In this document: piece after piece, positions 53,632 to 57,251 of the stretch | How positions within the stretch are numbered: the first letter of the stretch is position 1 | How the letters are laid out: each line of letters begins with the position of its first letter | Source: a phage | Direction: 5' to 3' (one strand) | DNA length: 59,621 bases | Sequence record: PZ049713.1 | Program-made: the position numbers and the translations under genes | The notes under the pieces: generated by a model | Databases searched by the model: none | Seen by the model: the letters and a program-made list of their open reading frames with translations, nothing else | Told to the model about the DNA's origin: nothing

Positions 53632-53952
53632 ATGCAAACACAACACACGCCGGGGCCGTGGGCGTACAAAGGAAAAGAAACCGCAGGCGCGGGAGGATTG
53701 CTACTCGGGCGAGATGGTGAGCCGATTGCGGTGGTATATGGTGAGAAAACCAACCCGCGAGCAGAGCATGACGGGAACATAATGGAGGCCGCGCCTGACC
53801 TGCTGGAAGCGCTGGAGGCTGCCAACGCACAGATGCGCATCGCCTATGAGTGCGTAGAAGCGGGACGCTACGACGAGGCACTACTGCACCTCGGGAGCAT
53901 GCCTAGACAACGCACTGAAGCCATCGCCAAGGCCCGCGGCGCCCCATGCTAA
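53632..53952 (+). CDS. Hypothetical early protein
   Basis: 106 aa from ATG 53632 (SD GGAGAA). Confidence 0.45.
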   Translation: MQTQHTPGPWAYKGKETAGAGGLLLGRDGEPIAVVYGEKTNPRAEHDGNIMEAAPDLLEALEAANAQMRIAYECVEAGRYDEALLHLGSMPRQRTEAIAKARGAPC

Positions 53953-54038
53953 CCGGCCCCGAAGCCCTGATCCTATGCGCCATCCTCGCAGCGCTGTACA
54001 TGTGGGATTGGTGGAGAAGGAATTGGAAAGGAGATTGA
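53946..54038 (+). CDS. Predicted membrane peptide (30 aa)
   Basis: Not in ORF track; overlaps upstream stop; reads MLTGPEALILCAILAALYMWDWWRRNWKGD. Confidence 0.3.
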   Translation: MLTGPEALILCAILAALYMWDWWRRNWKGD

Positions 54039-54039
54039 C

Positions 54040-54306
54040 ATGACCATTGAAACAGGCGGCCCGGCGTTTCCGGTTCAAGGGTTTGAGTATCTGAACGACG
54101 CCAACACAGCAGACCCGGAGCGGGTAGTGCACACCCCGTACCCGGGCATGACCCTTCGCGACTACCTGGCAGCCAAGGCGATGCAGTCACTTATGCGTGC
54201 AAACGGACTTTCTATCTGCCACCCATCGACCGATGGTGACAACCAGGCCGTAGCGAAAGTGGCATACGCGATGGCTGACGCAATGCTCGCAGCCCGCACC
54301 AAATAA
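54040..54306 (+). CDS. Hypothetical early protein
   Basis: 88 aa; SD AAGGAG upstream. Confidence 0.45.
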   Translation: MTIETGGPAFPVQGFEYLNDANTADPERVVHTPYPGMTLRDYLAAKAMQSLMRANGLSICHPSTDGDNQAVAKVAYAMADAMLAARTK

Positions 54307-54769
54307 CCCCCGCCTGAACCAGCCAGGCCAGACCCCCAGGTCTGCGATAACCGTACGGCGCGCGGTGCTGGTAGCGCCATGAACAAACCGCCGAGCGCAG
54401 CGGCCCTTCGGGATACCTGCGACGAGGATCAGCCGGACAGTGCCTCGATTGCAGAAAACCCCGGCAGCCATCCATGGGATTTTCCACAGCTTTGCCCGAG
54501 GGGATGGCCGAGTGACTGGCGTTACCAGTCGGCATCGGAGAGTGATCTGAATGCGCAGGCTGATGCGACGCCCATAGCGAGGCGACACGGCGGTAAAGCC
54601 ATTACGTTGTGCCGGGATCAGCTCCGGCCAGATCACTCCCCGATGCCACTGCATCACCCCTTCCCACGCCCATCCGGGCAACCGAGGTATCGACCATGAA
54701 GCACTACGGACCCATAGGGCGCCGCGAACAGCCGTGCCCGGATGACAGCGTTTCCGCGAGGATTCAACG

Positions 54770-55045
54770 ATGAAATTCGAGATCGACCTAGATGAATACC
54801 TCCTCTCCGTTGAGGTAACCCATTGCGCAGTCGTTGAACCTGACTGTCGGTGCCGGGACAGCGCGGACGATTACTACGGCTACAGCGAGCTTGAATTCAC
54901 CATCACCAGCGGCTCTGTCTTTGACGAAGACGGAAACGAAACGGAGATGGATCTGAATGGTTGCGCAGCGGTTGCCGATGAGCACGCGGAGCGGATCAAA
55001 GATCGGCTGTGGAACATGATCGACGCCAAGCGGGAGGCAGCATGA
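54770..55045 (+). CDS. Hypothetical acidic protein
   Basis: 91-aa ORF. Confidence 0.4.
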   Translation: MKFEIDLDEYLLSVEVTHCAVVEPDCRCRDSADDYYGYSELEFTITSGSVFDEDGNETEMDLNGCAAVADEHAERIKDRLWNMIDAKREAA

Positions 55046-55257
55046 AGACCGAAGACACCATTCGCGAGCACTTCAAGCACCTGCGCGGCGCTCGGTACGC
55101 AGCGACCGCCGACTACCACTGCAACGTGCTGTACGGCTACCTGAAAGCCCTGCGCGACACCGGACAGATCGAGACGAGCCTTTACCTGCGGATGAATCAC
55201 GCAGTCACGAAGGCATGGACGCTCAAGACGAAATTCACCGTGAGGACTGCGGCATGA
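55042..55257 (+). CDS. Hypothetical protein
   Basis: ATG 55042 overlaps upstream stop (ATGA). Confidence 0.4.
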   Translation: MKTEDTIREHFKHLRGARYAATADYHCNVLYGYLKALRDTGQIETSLYLRMNHAVTKAWTLKTKFTVRTAA

Positions 55258-55517
55258 AAGCCACCGTATACATCGCGCCGCACGGTCGCGCCGAGGTCAT
55301 TGAAGTGACCAAGGTGCGCCCAGAGGACGAGGCCTACTTCGTCCAGAACAACATCCAGATCAGCATGGAACAGCTTGCTGGCGAAACCATCGTTTACGCA
55401 GACATTGGCCAGACTGACGACGAGGGTGAGCCAGTCGAACTGACCGAGTTCGCCGGCACCCGATCTTGTGAAGAAACCCTGGCTGCGCTGCGCAAGGCAT
55501 GCGAGGAGGCGGCATGA
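55254..55517 (+). CDS. Hypothetical protein
   Basis: ATGA overlap with upstream gene. Confidence 0.4.
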   Translation: MKATVYIAPHGRAEVIEVTKVRPEDEAYFVQNNIQISMEQLAGETIVYADIGQTDDEGEPVELTEFAGTRSCEETLAALRKACEEAA

Positions 55518-55795
55518 GCAAGGAAGTGAAACGGTACGACCCTCTGTTAGGGCTGGCGCGCAACGCGAAGCTACGGCGAATGGACATGCAGTGCGACCCG
55601 CAGTGGGTGCTGGACCTCGCAGCTGAACGCGACGCCCTTCTCGCTGAGCGGGATCGGCTGAAGGAGGCGCTGGCAGCAATGCTTGAAATTCACGGCGTAA
55701 CCCAGCGCTTCGCAGACACCCATATCGAAATACCTCAGTCGTGGGTAGATGTTTCTGACTTTGCCCGCGCCGCCCTGCAAGGAGAGCAGCCATGA
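55514..55795 (+). CDS. Hypothetical protein
   Basis: ATGA overlap with upstream gene. Confidence 0.4.
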   Translation: MSKEVKRYDPLLGLARNAKLRRMDMQCDPQWVLDLAAERDALLAERDRLKEALAAMLEIHGVTQRFADTHIEIPQSWVDVSDFARAALQGEQP

Positions 55796-55893
55796 CCATC
55801 CAACTCAAGGAGCTGGCCGGCGCTGTCGGCATCCTCATCGTAGCCCTGTTCATCGGGGCGCTGTGCCACGTTGCGCTGATAGGGGGTGTGTGA
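55792..55893 (+). CDS. Predicted membrane peptide (33 aa)
   Basis: Not in ORF track; coupled on both sides; reads MTIQLKELAGAVGILIVALFIGALCHVALIGGV. Confidence 0.3.
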   Translation: MTIQLKELAGAVGILIVALFIGALCHVALIGGV

Positions 55894-56462
55894 TGGATGA
55901 CCGCGAACTGTTGGAGATGGCGGCTAAGGCCAAGCACGCCAAAGAGCGCCACGGGATGAACAAGAGCCCAGAACACCGGGCCTGGGTGAGCATGCGACAG
56001 CGCTGCAGTAATCCTAATAAGAAGGAGTTTAAGCACTACGGAGGGCGAGGTATCAAGGTCTGTCAGCGCTGGTCCTACTTCGCAAACTTCATAGCGGACA
56101 TGGGGCGCCGCCCTAGCTCGGCTCACTCCCTTGACCGAATTGATGTGAACGGAGACTACGAGCCGGGCAACGTTCGCTGGGCCACAAAACAGACACAAGC
56201 AGAGAACACGACGGTTGCACGGATACTTTCCCATGATGGCGAAGCGCTGACAGTAAGTGAGTGGGAGCGTCGGAAGTGTCTCGCTCGAGGCACGATTTGT
56301 CGGCGCCTAGCAAGTGGATGGTCAATCGCTGAAGCAATCGATACGAGGCCTGTCATTGGGCAAAAGGTTCACCCCGAACCACCAAGGGACGTTTCTCGCC
56401 AAGCTCGAGGTAGCCATGGTGAGTTCGTCCGCGCTGCAGCCGAGATCGGGAGGGCCATGTGA
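55893..56462 (+). CDS. HNH endonuclease
   Basis: 189 aa; ...YGGRGIKVCQRW...SLDRIDVNGDYEPGNVRWATKQTQAEN. Confidence 0.7.
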   Translation: MDDRELLEMAAKAKHAKERHGMNKSPEHRAWVSMRQRCSNPNKKEFKHYGGRGIKVCQRWSYFANFIADMGRRPSSAHSLDRIDVNGDYEPGNVRWATKQTQAENTTVARILSHDGEALTVSEWERRKCLARGTICRRLASGWSIAEAIDTRPVIGQKVHPEPPRDVSRQARGSHGEFVRAAAEIGRAM

Positions 56463-56581
56463 TGGCATCAGCCTACCAACGCGCCAAGCGCATCTGGTTC
56501 TGGAAATTCTACGGCTACGGCCTGGCAGTGTTCTCGCTGCTGGCTGTGATTAGCGGACTGGCAGGGGAGGTGACGGGATGA
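56462..56581 (+). CDS. Predicted membrane peptide (39 aa)
   Basis: Not in ORF track; coupled on both sides; C-terminal hydrophobic segment. Confidence 0.3.
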   Translation: MASAYQRAKRIWFWKFYGYGLAVFSLLAVISGLAGEVTG

Positions 56582-57084
56582 ACGCTCAAGAACGCAAAGC
56601 CTTCGCCGAGACCATACGCCCCGCAGTGAATGGCCAGTCTGACAAGTTCTCCTGGCGGCTATATCAGCGGGCTCTGAAGAAGGGGCGTGAGCAGGTCTAT
56701 CTGATGGCGTGGAACGTCATCGATGGATACCGCGCTCCGAGCCTCGGCGACCTAGAAGCAGGGAATACGCCAGCCTACCAAATTGCAATCGGCGTGAAGG
56801 CAGATGGCTGGTTCCACGGAAACAATCTTCGCAACATTTGCACCCCAGGCTCGGCCAGGCACGACTGGGCGTATAGCCCAGCCCACCACGTGGACGAGTG
56901 GATCGAGATTACCGACTGGTTCTGGGAGAACTACCTACGCGTCGGCCGCTGCCTGTTCTGGAAGTACGAACACAACTGGATTGCCATCAATCGCAACGCA
57001 CGCAAGTGCGCACATTGCGGGGAGCATCAGCGCCGCAGCATTAGGACAAAGCGCGTTATCGAGCGAAAGGAGATTTGGGCATGA
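56578..57084 (+). CDS. Hypothetical protein
   Basis: 168-aa ORF; C-terminal CAHCGEH. Confidence 0.45.
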   Translation: MNAQERKAFAETIRPAVNGQSDKFSWRLYQRALKKGREQVYLMAWNVIDGYRAPSLGDLEAGNTPAYQIAIGVKADGWFHGNNLRNICTPGSARHDWAYSPAHHVDEWIEITDWFWENYLRVGRCLFWKYEHNWIAINRNARKCAHCGEHQRRSIRTKRVIERKEIWA

Positions 57085-57251
57085 ACCGCACCCTCCCCAT
57101 CCCCTACGACACCGGCCCGCACGACGACACCCCATCAGGCCACAGCTTCGCCGCTGCTTGGTGGACCCTTACCGGGTTCGGCGTCCTTTCCGCAACGCTC
57201 GCTTTCGGCCTCATTGGTGAGGCGGCGATCTTTCACTTCTTCGGAGGTTGA
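57081..57251 (+). CDS. Predicted small membrane protein (56 aa)
   Basis: Not in ORF track; ATGA overlap with upstream stop; hydrophobic segment FGVLSATLAFGLIGEAAIF. Confidence 0.3.
   Translation: MNRTLPIPYDTGPHDDTPSGHSFAAAWWTLTGFGVLSATLAFGLIGEAAIFHFFGG

What the first reader, a model, noticed from the sequence alone, without database searches (positions are those of the whole stretch)
53946..57251. Chain of translationally coupled micro-ORFs encoding predicted membrane peptides in the early-left operon
Unannotated ORFs of 30, 33, 39 and 56 codons (53946, 55792, 56462, 57081), each with a hydrophobic helix, have start codons overlapping the upstream stop and stops overlapping the downstream start (ATGA or TGATG). 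Early-operon micro-proteins of this kind are frequent host-takeover or anti-defence factors and are usually missed by ORF callers.
Basis: partly seen in the sequence, partly recalled or inferred. Interest (0 to 1): 0.4.

Follow-up and report, generated by a model that had tools for sequence, protein, structure and literature searches.

The report
Conserved micro membrane-protein genes in prophage
Four tiny genes (30-56 codons) for single-helix membrane peptides in the early operon of a Stutzerimonas-type prophage are real and conserved, and they form the fixed backbone between which larger accessory genes are swapped, but what the peptides do is still unknown.

Summary
The four micro-ORFs exist at the stated coordinates. 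Six of their eight junctions overlap a neighbouring gene (ATGA, TGATG or ATGCTAA); two are 1-2 nt gaps. In about 60 related phage and prophage loci every recovered copy is an intact ORF, all indels are in-frame, and the order m30-m33-m39-m56 is constant. Copies only 45-65% identical in DNA keep their length, hydrophobic helix, motifs and coupled start/stop. AlphaFold predicts one long helix for m39 and for m56. None matches Pfam, PHROGs, NCBIfam or PADLOC.

The micro-ORFs are also sharp islands of 89-96% DNA identity in an otherwise swapped mosaic. Among 30 loci found through a neighbouring gene, m56 is present in 30 and m39, m33 and m30 in 27 each, while the larger genes between them are present in 0-16. 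Their 3' ends carry the Shine-Dalgarno sequence and start codon for whatever gene follows, alleles are reassorted, and some slots are empty.

Verdict: these are genuine small membrane-protein genes that form the backbone of a lambda-like early-left operon. A host-takeover or anti-defence role is untested. "Missed by ORF callers" is only partly true. Interest is moderate.

The parts
53946..54038 (+). m30: 30-aa micro-gene with an N-terminal TM helix followed by the motif W(D/E)WW.RNWK. The last codons (AAA GGA GAT) form the SD for the next gene.
   Evidence: All 19 complete homologues recovered in the first set (one further copy is cut by a contig end) and 3 diverged genome copies are intact. 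dN/dS is 0.27-0.49 against copies 54-77% identical in DNA. Present in 27/30 control loci.
55792..55893 (+). m33: 33-aa micro-gene that is almost entirely one TM helix. At least three core variants exist. The 3' end GGGGGTGTGTGATG is near-invariant (one copy reads GCGTGATG) and serves as SD plus start for the next gene.
   Evidence: All 27 complete homologues are intact (one further copy is cut by a contig end). dN/dS is 0.16-0.50. There are 11 different downstream contexts. Caveat: the +3 frame is also open in 26/26.
56462..56581 (+). m39: 39-aa micro-gene with a basic N-terminus (MAS.YQRAKR), a TM helix and a short tail (GLAG.VTG). The 3' end GG(A/G)AGGTGACGGGATGA serves as SD plus start for the next gene.
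   Evidence: All 30 complete homologues are intact (two further copies are cut by contig ends). Its own frame is open in all 29 sequences tested; the other plus-strand frames are never open and one antisense frame is open in 14 of 29. AF2 predicts helix 4-38 at pLDDT 87.5. Homologues with the same architecture occur in phages whose Gp157-like gene is only 47-80% identical.
57081..57251 (+). m56: 56-aa micro-gene with an acidic/His N-terminal segment carrying the near-invariant motif DDTP(S/T)GHSFAAAWW, then a TM helix. The 3' end GGAGGTTGA supplies the SD for the recombinase gene.
   Evidence: There are 53 clusters at 90% identity, all labelled 'hypothetical'. AF2 predicts helix 20-54 at pLDDT >90. 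Present in 30/30 control loci. It always sits immediately upstream of the recombination module, whatever that module's type.
54696..54773 (+). 25-aa ORF, not hydrophobic, coupled by ATGA to gene 54770. It is a conserved 'head' (MKHYGPIGRREQPCPDD plus about 55 nt upstream) that in other loci is fused to at least four unrelated gene bodies.
   Evidence: a 25-aa stub in 6 loci; bodies of 71, 83 and 117-120 aa in others; conservation depth of about 20 loci.
54390..54469 (+). Proteo-phage-1 RNA motif (Rfam RF03044), inside a conserved stretch (54307-54695) where no gene was assigned. It is another conserved island of the backbone.
   Evidence: 70.2 bits, gathering score 42, E 8.6e-12. (92-97% identity to PS-1; depth 9-14 loci).
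54040..54306 (+). Variable cargo gene (88 aa, phrog_2201) in the slot after m30. In several relatives it is absent and m30 abuts the RNA region.
   Evidence: 5/30 control loci.
54770..55795 (+). Four ATGA-coupled variable cargo genes (91, 71, 87 and 93 aa) between the head ORF and m33. The last one ends ...QGEQP*, which is part of the conserved m33 junction.
   Evidence: 0-16 of 30 control loci.
55893..56462 (+). Variable cargo in the m33-m39 slot: a 189-aa HNH-endonuclease-like gene (phrog_3377). Its first ~27 and last ~10 residues match the unrelated PS1_20 gene.
   Evidence: the slot is empty in 13 loci. (in-slot homologue in 1/30).
56578..57084 (+). Variable cargo in the m39-m56 slot: a 168-aa protein with no family match (WP_049325999.1, Stutzerimonas stutzeri).
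   Evidence: 4/30. Five or more other cargo types occupy this slot.
57254..58470 (+). Recombination module: Rad52-like annealing protein (57254-57976) and Gp157/Mu-Gam-like protein (57973-58470).
   Evidence: PF04098; phrog_253; PF05565 in relatives.
52032..52119 (+). Terminator-like hairpin (52032-52051) followed by a sigma-70-like promoter match (52091-52119). This is the candidate start of the early-left transcript. No + strand terminator-like site lies between 52200 and 59600.
   Evidence: These are consensus matches only.
48916..49590 (+). cI-like repressor on the same strand as the operon. A cro-like gene (48656-48838) and replication genes lie on the - strand.
   Evidence: sequence. (HTH_3 + Peptidase_S24 on a gene upstream of the same operon in relatives L037-L039).

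Best explanation
The four micro-ORFs are genuine genes for small single-pass inner-membrane proteins. They belong to four unrelated, uncharacterised families and form the conserved core of the early-left (PL-type) operon of a lineage of temperate phages of Stutzerimonas (the Pseudomonas stutzeri group).

Proposed mechanism:
1. On induction or infection one long transcript is made from a promoter downstream of cI. This is inferred from lambda-like synteny and the absence of internal terminator-like sites.
2. Ribosomes pass from cistron to cistron at the overlapping stop/start sites, so the micro-genes are translated as links in the chain. The sequence arrangement is shown; the translation itself is inferred.
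3. Each peptide inserts as one TM helix. By the positive-inside rule, m39 would be N-in because of its basic YQRAKR N-terminus, m30 would be C-in because of its WDWWRRNWK tail, and m56 would have its acidic/His DDTPSGHSF segment outside. All of this is inferred.
4. In the membrane the peptides most likely bind and modulate a host envelope or membrane protein during early development. This is inferred by analogy with other small phage and bacterial membrane proteins, and the target is unknown.
5. The 3' end of each micro-gene encodes the Shine-Dalgarno sequence and start codon of whatever gene follows, and the micro-genes are the only long stretches of homology shared among relatives. They therefore act as docking points where accessory genes are exchanged by homologous recombination without losing expression. 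The conservation pattern and allele reassortment are shown; the recombination mechanism is inferred, and the phage carries its own Rad52-like recombinase.
For: Coding:
- Every complete homologue recovered is an intact ORF (m30 19, m33 27, m39 30, m56 28) and all length differences are multiples of three.
- For m39 only its own frame is open in all 29 sequences tested (one antisense frame is open in 14); for m56 its own frame is open in all 27 and any other frame in at most 8.
- Third codon positions vary most and second positions least (m39 16/12/23, m56 24/19/36, m33 19/15/24).
- GC3 exceeds GC1 and GC2, as in the flanking genes.
- dN/dS against diverged copies is 0.27-0.49 for m30, 0.16-0.50 for m33 and 0.21-0.60 for m56.

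Protein-level constraint beyond DNA similarity:
- m39 copies with only 45-53% DNA identity keep a 38-43 aa length, the (Y/R/H)QR..R basic N-terminus, a TM segment, a (V/I)T(G/Q)-type tail and a coupled stop/start.
- m30 variants keep the TM segment plus W(D/E)WW.RNWK.
- m33 has three different hydrophobic cores between conserved ends.

Helices: AF2 predicts helix 4-38 for m39 (pLDDT 87.5) and helix 20-54 for m56 (pLDDT >90). This level of hydrophobicity is reached by only 2-4% of random small ORFs.

Backbone:
- Identity islands to phage PS-1 coincide with the micro-ORFs, while the larger genes have no PS-1 homologue.
- The depth profile over 34 loci peaks on the micro-ORFs.
- In 30 loci found through the neighbouring Gp157-like gene, m56 is present in 30 and m39, m33 and m30 in 27 each, against 0-16 for the cargo genes.
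- Slots are empty in some loci (m33-m39 in 13 loci, m39-m56 in one) and hold 88-889 nt in others.
- There are 9-16 distinct downstream junction contexts per micro-gene.
- Alleles are reassorted, with all four combinations of m33 classes A/C and m56 classes A/B present.

Operon context.
Against: - There are no expression or localisation data of any kind.
- dN/dS is only moderately below 1 (0.4-0.75 within the close set) and is 0.54-0.87 for the most diverged m39 pairs, where synonymous sites are saturated.
- For m33 the +3 frame is also open in all 26 sequences, and for m30 three other frames are mostly open. Frame openness alone therefore does not prove coding for those two.
- Many related contigs come from one series of metagenomes and are not independent.
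- The first locus set was ascertained through m39 or m56 themselves. The control set only partly removes this bias, because it was ascertained through a gene 0.7 kb away.
- The neighbouring conserved 'head' at 54696-54773 shows that sequence islands in this region can be conserved without encoding a stand-alone protein.
- Nothing indicates which host process is targeted.
Confidence: 0.7

Rival explanations
1. The islands are conserved mainly for a nucleic-acid-level role. They would be translational-coupling adaptors (SD plus start for the next gene) and homology 'handles' for cassette exchange, and the encoded peptides would be incidental passengers.
For: - Homology boundaries fall within a few nucleotides of the micro-ORF ends.
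- Each 3' end is an SD-stop/start motif used by many different downstream genes.
- Unrelated upstream genes share the last codons ...QGEQP*/...GAQP*, which form the SD of m33.
- A conserved 18-20-codon head is fused to at least four unrelated gene bodies.
- HNH-gene termini are shared with the unrelated PS1_20.
- Breakpoints lie inside the micro-ORFs: the m56 C-terminal half, chimeric m33 copies and the variable m30 tails.
- dN/dS is not very low.
- Rad52-like recombinases are reported to drive mosaicism through diverged homology (PMC3945230).
Against: - An adaptor needs only about 15-20 nt, not 90-170 nt of always-open reading frame.
- Copies too diverged to serve as homology (45-65% DNA identity) still keep length, frame, TM helix and motifs.
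- Four out of four being strongly hydrophobic is not expected for non-coding linkers.
- Indels are always in-frame.
- The two readings are not exclusive. The handle role is already part of the best explanation as a consequence of conservation, not its cause.
Confidence: 0.18
2. The peptides are specific functional analogues of the small early-left proteins of lambda: a CIII-like inhibitor of the membrane protease FtsH, or a Kil-like cell-division or host-killing factor. They occupy the same position just upstream of the recombination genes.
For: - Position: m39 and m56 sit directly upstream of the recombination module in every relative, including distant ones. From general knowledge, kil, cIII and ea10 lie in that position in lambda.
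- The phage has a lambda-like immunity region.
- m39 and m56 occur as a directly coupled pair in L024 and L041.
Against: - There is no sequence similarity to any Pfam family, including the lambda CIII and Kil families, at E up to 10, and none in PHROGs or NCBIfam.
- From general knowledge, CIII and Kil are not integral TM peptides.
- Positional analogy in a highly mosaic region is weak evidence.
Confidence: 0.08
3. The micro-ORFs are chance open frames in GC-rich DNA between real genes, and their hydrophobicity is coincidental.
For: - In 60% GC DNA, alternative frames are often open. For m30 and m33 other frames are open in most relatives.
Against: - About 100 complete ORF copies in the first locus set are intact, and indels are in-frame.
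- Architecture is conserved at 45-65% DNA identity.
- The codon-position pattern fits these frames.
- They fill the inter-gene gaps exactly, with coupled starts and stops.
- Only 2-4% of random small ORFs are this hydrophobic.
- Independent gene callers call them.
Confidence: 0.03

Closest known systems
Small phage-encoded proteins of early operons (under 100 aa; reviewed in PMC11323111), and small bacterial membrane proteins that modulate larger membrane proteins
   Same: Size (30-56 aa), location in an early operon, a single TM helix, and conservation within one phage lineage.
   Different: There is no sequence relationship to any described family and no functional data. Here four unrelated peptides occur in a fixed order and are more conserved than the enzymes around them.
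PeSL cassettes (promoter-early stem-loops) of T4-type phages, which mediate modular shuffling of ORFan genes in hyperplastic regions (Arbiol et al. 2010, PMC2839356; Comeau et al. 2014, PMC4122927)
   Same: Short conserved elements flank variable, mostly function-unknown genes. They supply expression signals to whatever lies downstream, and recombination between them explains insertion, deletion and replacement differences between close relatives.
   Different: PeSLs are non-coding transcription signals (a sigma-70 promoter plus a terminator hairpin) repeated many times in one genome. Here the conserved elements are protein-coding, the signals are translational (SD plus overlapping stop/start), and the four elements are not similar to each other. 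No + strand promoter-like or terminator-like site was found inside the operon. Only a 13-nt junction, GGAGGC(A/G)GCATGA, is repeated three times.
Mosaic joints at gene boundaries in lambdoid temperate phages, with homology-driven exchange by Rad52-like recombinases (De Paepe et al. 2014, PMC3945230)
   Same: The phage is temperate with a lambda-like layout and its own Rad52-like annealing protein. Exchanged segments are bordered by short stretches of homology, and breakpoints lie at or near gene ends.
   Different: The flanking homologies here are whole conserved micro-genes in a fixed order and not residual traces at the borders. Four of them are membrane peptides.
Lambda early-left small proteins CIII and Kil
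   Same: Small products of the PL operon encoded just upstream of the recombination genes (position known from general knowledge of lambda).
   Different: There is no sequence similarity. CIII and Kil are not integral TM peptides.

Membership tests
Genuine small protein-coding genes | The reading frame is kept intact in relatives and indels are in-frame | tested here: met
   All complete copies are intact and length differences are multiples of 3.
Genuine small protein-coding genes | The substitution pattern shows purifying selection on the peptide | tested here: inconclusive
   dN/dS is 0.16-0.60 for m30, m33 and m56 but 0.49-0.87 for m39. The sequences are short, synonymous sites are saturated, and the samples are not independent.
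Genuine small protein-coding genes | The ORFs are translated in vivo | not testable with these tools
   This needs Ribo-seq, tagging or mass spectrometry.
Single-pass membrane peptides | A hydrophobic helix of about 17-23 residues that is conserved as a property | tested here: met
   (KD17 1.86-2.86, against 2-4% of random ORFs). (AF2 helices). (KD17 1.49-2.47 in diverged copies).
Single-pass membrane peptides | Membrane localisation and topology | not testable with these tools
   The topology given in the report is inferred only from the positive-inside rule.
PeSL-type mobile regulatory cassettes (T4-type phages) | Composed of a sigma-70-like promoter plus a terminator stem-loop | tested here: not met
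   There is no + strand promoter-like or terminator-like site between 52200 and 59600.
PeSL-type mobile regulatory cassettes (T4-type phages) | The same motif is repeated many times within one genome | tested here: not met
   The four micro-ORFs are not repeats of each other. Only a 13-nt SD-ATGA junction recurs three times.
PeSL-type mobile regulatory cassettes (T4-type phages) | Flank variable genes, and differences between relatives map between the elements | tested here: met
Lambda CIII / Kil families | Sequence match to the family profile | tested here: not met
   No Pfam hit at E up to 10, apart from a chance-level DUF7818 match for m33 (E 0.14).
Holins | Located in the late lysis cassette next to an endolysin | tested here: not met
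   The genes lie in the early operon between the cI-like gene and the recombination genes, and no lysis gene is adjacent.
Type I toxin-like hydrophobic peptides (Hok/Ldr/TisB type) | A stand-alone gene with its own promoter and an overlapping antisense RNA, matching a toxin family | tested here: not met
   (embedded in a coupled polycistronic chain). (no antisense RNA family hit). (no family hit).
Known anti-phage defence components | Match to a PADLOC model | tested here: not met
   No hit for the four peptides or their neighbours.
Anti-defence or host-takeover factors | A demonstrated effect on a host defence system or host process | not testable with these tools
   No profile library of anti-defence proteins was available here, and experiments are needed.

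The most novel reading that the evidence does not exclude
The micro-genes could be a coding counterpart of the T4 PeSL cassettes. In this reading they form an ordered set of conserved 'docking cistrons' whose main selected role is to let the phage population swap accessory genes at fixed slots. Each would provide about 100-170 bp of homology for the phage's own Rad52-like recombinase and, at its 3' end, a ready-made SD plus overlapping start, so that any incoming gene is expressed by translational coupling. The membrane peptide would then be either a secondary function or a way of keeping the element under selection.
Probability: 0.25. Interest if true: 0.65.

Novelty: new member of a known kind. 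Interest (0 to 1): 0.42.

Why it matters
If the peptides are made, this phage lineage keeps four tiny membrane proteins more faithfully than its recombinases and nucleases. That marks them as important early functions with no known family, and as good candidates for new phage-host membrane interactions.

The locus is also an unusually clean natural example of how mosaic phage genomes are built. It has fixed, ordered anchor genes with empty and filled slots between them, and junction sequences that carry the translation signals for whatever is inserted. This makes the old 'linker' version of the modular theory directly testable: cross two relatives and map the crossovers, or recode an anchor synonymously and see whether exchange stops.

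On the practical side, three of the four genes are absent from the RefSeq annotation of phage PS-1.

Tried and rejected
- Family searches: Pfam, PHROGs, NCBIfam and PADLOC gave nothing for the four peptides. The only matches were chance-level: phrog_7793 and phrog_22893 for m30 (E 0.05-0.08) and DUF7818 for m33 (E 0.14).
I worked around this with degenerate DNA patterns and with the 40-aa GTG-extended m39. m30 and m33 could not be searched in the large protein database.
- Remote homology: a profile of the m56 family against 1.84 billion representatives found only 6 short relatives plus 2 doubtful hits in long proteins.
- Literature: searches for Proteo-phage-1 found nothing, and nothing specific turned up on coupled small membrane ORFs in temperate phages.
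- Other databases: megablast and blastn against 50,697 phage records found only PS-1 as a real relative. Rfam found no RNA overlapping the micro-ORFs.
- Rejected readings: holins (wrong operon), type I toxins (no stand-alone unit or antisense RNA), remnants of longer genes (all relatives have the same short lengths; the one long form, P0080, is a secondary fusion by loss of the stop), and paralogy among the four peptides (no mutual similarity).
- An early script used coordinates off by one for two cargo genes. This was corrected and does not affect the micro-ORFs.

Full report
OBSERVATION

The four ORFs are present exactly as listed, all on the + strand:
- m30, 53946-54038: MLTGPEALILCAILAALYMWDWWRRNWKGD
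- m33, 55792-55893: MTIQLKELAGAVGILIVALFIGALCHVALIGGV
- m39, 56462-56581: MASAYQRAKRIWFWKFYGYGLAVFSLLAVISGLAGEVTG
- m56, 57081-57251: MNRTLPIPYDTGPHDDTPSGHSFAAAWWTLTGFGVLSATLAFGLIGEAAIFHFFGG

Six of the eight junctions overlap: ATGCTAA upstream of m30, ATGA and TGATG around m33, TGATG and ATGA around m39, and ATGA upstream of m56. The stops of m30 and m56 are separated from the next ATG by 1 and 2 nt. Coupling is not peculiar to the micro-ORFs, because almost every junction in the operon from 53365 to 57976 is an ATGA overlap.

All four have a segment whose 17-residue Kyte-Doolittle mean is 1.86-2.86. Only 2.4-3.8% of the 210 ATG-ORFs of 28-60 aa in the six frames of the window reach that level.

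CONTEXT

The window has 60% G+C. Upstream on the same strand lies a cI-like gene (48916-49590), with a divergent cro-like gene and O/DnaC-like replication genes on the other strand. In related contigs a gene upstream of the same operon carries HTH_3 and Peptidase_S24.

A terminator-like hairpin (52032-52051) and a promoter-like site (52091-52119) precede the gene chain. No + strand terminator-like site follows before the end of the window.

Downstream of m56 come a Rad52-like annealing protein (PF04098) and a Gp157/Mu-Gam-like protein (phrog_253). The label 'early-left operon' is therefore reasonable by synteny with lambda.

Exact or near-exact copies of the neighbouring proteins are from Stutzerimonas stutzeri, S. 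frequens and S. balearica. Prophage copies were found in S. kunmingensis, P. songnenensis and S. stutzeri KOS6.

The only relative among 50,697 phage records is Pseudomonas phage PS-1. tblastn finds all four peptides there, at 97%, 82%, 92% and 69% identity and in the same order. Only the m56 homologue is annotated in PS-1, as PS1_14.

A degenerate DNA pattern for m39 recovered 30 viral contigs, and a pattern for the m56 motif recovered 5 genome loci. In these loci every complete copy is an intact ORF (m30 19, m33 27, m39 30, m56 28). Four further copies are cut by contig ends. All length differences are whole codons and the order is constant.

Variable alignment columns by codon position are 16/12/23 for m39, 24/19/36 for m56 and 19/15/24 for m33. 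The third position varies most and the second least, as expected for these frames.

Only m39's own frame is open in all 29 sequences tested; the other plus-strand frames are never open and one antisense frame is open in 14. For m56, frames other than its own are open in at most 8 of 27. For m33 the +3 frame, and for m30 three other frames, are also mostly open. For those two peptides the argument therefore rests on the substitution pattern and conserved features, not on openness alone.

DIVERGED COPIES

These carry the most weight. Prophage and metagenome copies with 45-77% DNA identity keep the same architecture.

- m39-like peptides include MASQRQRSLRYAWWRGFLLTLAGITGWFYLSGLAGMVTG, MPSSYQRAKRYAWWRGFVVALAVFTGWLYLSALAGSIAP and MTSHQRARRLLIWRGSFPAIAFFTIWMLISALADRVTQ. 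They are 38-43 aa long, with a basic (Y/R/H)QR..R N-terminus, a TM segment and a short tail, and they remain coupled to their neighbours.
- m30 variants keep a TM helix followed by W(D/E)WW.RNWK.
- m33 has three different hydrophobic cores between conserved ends.
- dN/dS against these diverged copies is 0.27-0.49 for m30, 0.16-0.50 for m33, 0.21-0.60 for m56 and 0.54-0.87 for m39, where synonymous sites are saturated.

AlphaFold2 with family alignments gives a single helix 4-38 for m39 (pLDDT 87.5). For m56 it gives a low-confidence N-terminal segment plus helix 20-54 (pLDDT >90).

I conclude that the ORFs are real genes for single-pass membrane peptides under relaxed but real purifying selection.

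DNA similarity to PS-1 is confined to sharp islands:
- 53920-54035 (m30, 96%)
- 54295-54541 and 54645-54756 (92-97%)
- 55779-55896 (m33, 89%)
- 56474-56581 (m39, 96%)
- 57079-57170 (m56 N-terminal half, 90%)

The larger genes between them have no PS-1 counterpart. Pairwise alignments show homology starting at about the SD of the micro-gene and ending at its stop/start. A depth profile over 34 loci peaks on the micro-genes and falls to 0-7 loci over the larger genes.

That locus set was ascertained through m39 or m56, so I collected a control set of 46 loci through the neighbouring Gp157-like gene. Among the 30 loci with at least 91% identity and full upstream sequence:
- m56 is present in 30, and m39, m33 and m30 in 27 each.
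- The cargo genes are much rarer: 168-aa gene 4, in-slot HNH 1, g54040 5, g54770 16, g55042 6, g55254 0.

The slot between m33 and m39 is empty, with direct TGATG coupling, in 13 loci and holds 88-609 nt elsewhere. The m39-m56 slot ranges from a direct ATGA overlap to 889 nt.

JUNCTIONS

The 3' end of each micro-gene is an SD plus start used by many different downstream genes:
- m30 ends AAAGGAGAT.
- m33 ends GGGGGTGTGTGATG in almost every copy.
- m39 ends GG(A/G)AGGTGACGGGATGA.
- m56 ends GGAGGTTGA.

There are 9-16 distinct downstream junction contexts per micro-gene. Unrelated genes upstream of m33 share their last codons (...QGEQP*/...GAQP*), which form the m33 SD.

Alleles are reassorted: all four combinations of m33 classes A/C with m56 classes A/B occur. 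Chimeric m33 and m56 sequences place some breakpoints inside the micro-genes.

The phage encodes a Rad52-like recombinase. Such enzymes are reported to drive mosaicism through short, diverged homologies (PMC3945230).

OTHER CONSERVED ISLANDS

- A Proteo-phage-1 RNA motif (RF03044) lies at 54390-54469 (70 bits).
- A 25-codon ORF at 54696-54773 has a conserved head that is fused to at least four unrelated gene bodies in other loci.

The second case shows that not every conserved island in this region encodes a stand-alone protein. It is the main reason to keep the nucleic-acid-level rival alive.

FUNCTION

No family library recognises any of the four peptides. The m56 family is tiny: 53 clusters at 90% identity, and about 6 representatives among 1.84 billion proteins. 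All database names are 'hypothetical protein'.

My best-supported mechanism is as follows. The peptides are made early by ribosome hand-over along the coupled chain, insert in the inner membrane, and act on a host membrane or envelope component. As the only conserved sequences in the region, and as carriers of the downstream translation signals, they also serve as docking points for recombinational exchange of accessory genes.

Steps that are shown: sequence arrangement, conservation, predicted helices, the mosaic pattern and allele reassortment.
Steps that are inferred: transcription as one unit, translation, topology, target and recombination mechanism.

A CIII-like or Kil-like role is suggested only by position and has no sequence support. 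Host takeover or anti-defence remains an untested possibility.

COMPARISON WITH KNOWN SYSTEMS

As small early phage proteins these are new, uncharacterised families of a familiar kind (PMC11323111).

As shuffling elements they resemble the PeSL cassettes of T4-type phages, which flank variable genes and supply their expression signals (PMC2839356). They fail the defining PeSL features, however: there is no promoter or terminator and no intragenomic repetition. They therefore work somewhat like PeSLs without being members of that class.

VERDICT

Novelty: new members of a known kind, with a more novel 'docking cistron' reading not excluded (probability about 0.25). Interest is moderate (0.42).

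Noticed in passing
window 54390-54469 (+), within the conserved stretch 54307-54695 where no gene was assigned: Rfam Proteo-phage-1 RNA motif (RF03044) at 70.2 bits against a gathering score of 42. It lies in a ~390-nt region that is 92-97% identical to phage PS-1 and conserved in 9-14 relatives. Its function is unknown, and the paper library returned no paper that mentions the motif.
   Followed up: partly
window 54696-54773 (+): A 25-aa ORF coupled by ATGA to gene 54770. Its first 17-20 codons (MKHYGPIGRREQPCPDD) and about 55 nt upstream are the most widely conserved island apart from m39 and m56. In other loci the same head is fused in-frame to at least four unrelated bodies (71, 83 and 117-120 aa). 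This suggests a conserved translation-initiation or regulatory region reused by different genes.
   Followed up: partly
window 55893-56462 (+): The HNH-endonuclease-like gene (phrog_3377) has N-terminal ~27 and C-terminal ~10 residues matching the otherwise unrelated PS1_20 of phage PS-1. Relatives L008 and L019 have a shorter gene (322-331 nt slot) with the same first codons. It looks as if an endonuclease core has replaced the middle of a resident gene.
   Followed up: partly
window 55033-55045, 55505-55517 and 57964-57976: The 13-nt junction GGAGGC(A/G)GCATGA (SD, spacer, overlapping stop/start, with genes ending ...EAA*) recurs at three gene boundaries. It could be convergence on a good coupling signal or a short recombination linker.
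   Followed up: no
protein P0080: In one metagenome contig m33 has lost its stop (GGV* has become GGCVMGG...) and is fused to the 180-aa downstream cargo protein. This shows how fragile the TGATG junction is.
   Followed up: no
L034 (NZ_JBLXCL010000012.1) and L036 (JBFHJN010000049.1): Contigs carrying this phage's early operon (m56 91-96% identical) are binned into MAGs labelled Pelagibacterium and Coriobacteriia. This is probably mis-binning of a Stutzerimonas-type phage contig.
   Followed up: no
window 53605-53952, and L001 2728-3033 and 5712-6011: The phrog_1273-type gene upstream of m30 has paralogues (30-36% identity) that in PS-1 and several contigs also occupy the m39-m56 slot. Both copies end with ...AIAKARG..., so the same gene family's 3' end abuts either m30 or m56.
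   Followed up: no
window 49620-52010 (+): Between the cI-like gene and the putative early-left promoter lie ORFs of 236 aa (49620-50330), 113 aa (50570-50911) and 352 aa (50952-52010). A terminator-like hairpin sits between the first two (50496-50518) and another after the last (52032-52051). This is the position of lysogen-expressed accessory genes such as lambda rexAB. They were not analysed.
   Followed up: no
L037-L039, genes at about 6286-6579 and 7529-8464; window 58863-59156: In relatives, the 97-aa gene homologous to window 58863-59156 carries a SutA-RBD Pfam hit (an RNA-polymerase-binding domain), and a DHFR_2 gene follows further downstream.
   Followed up: no
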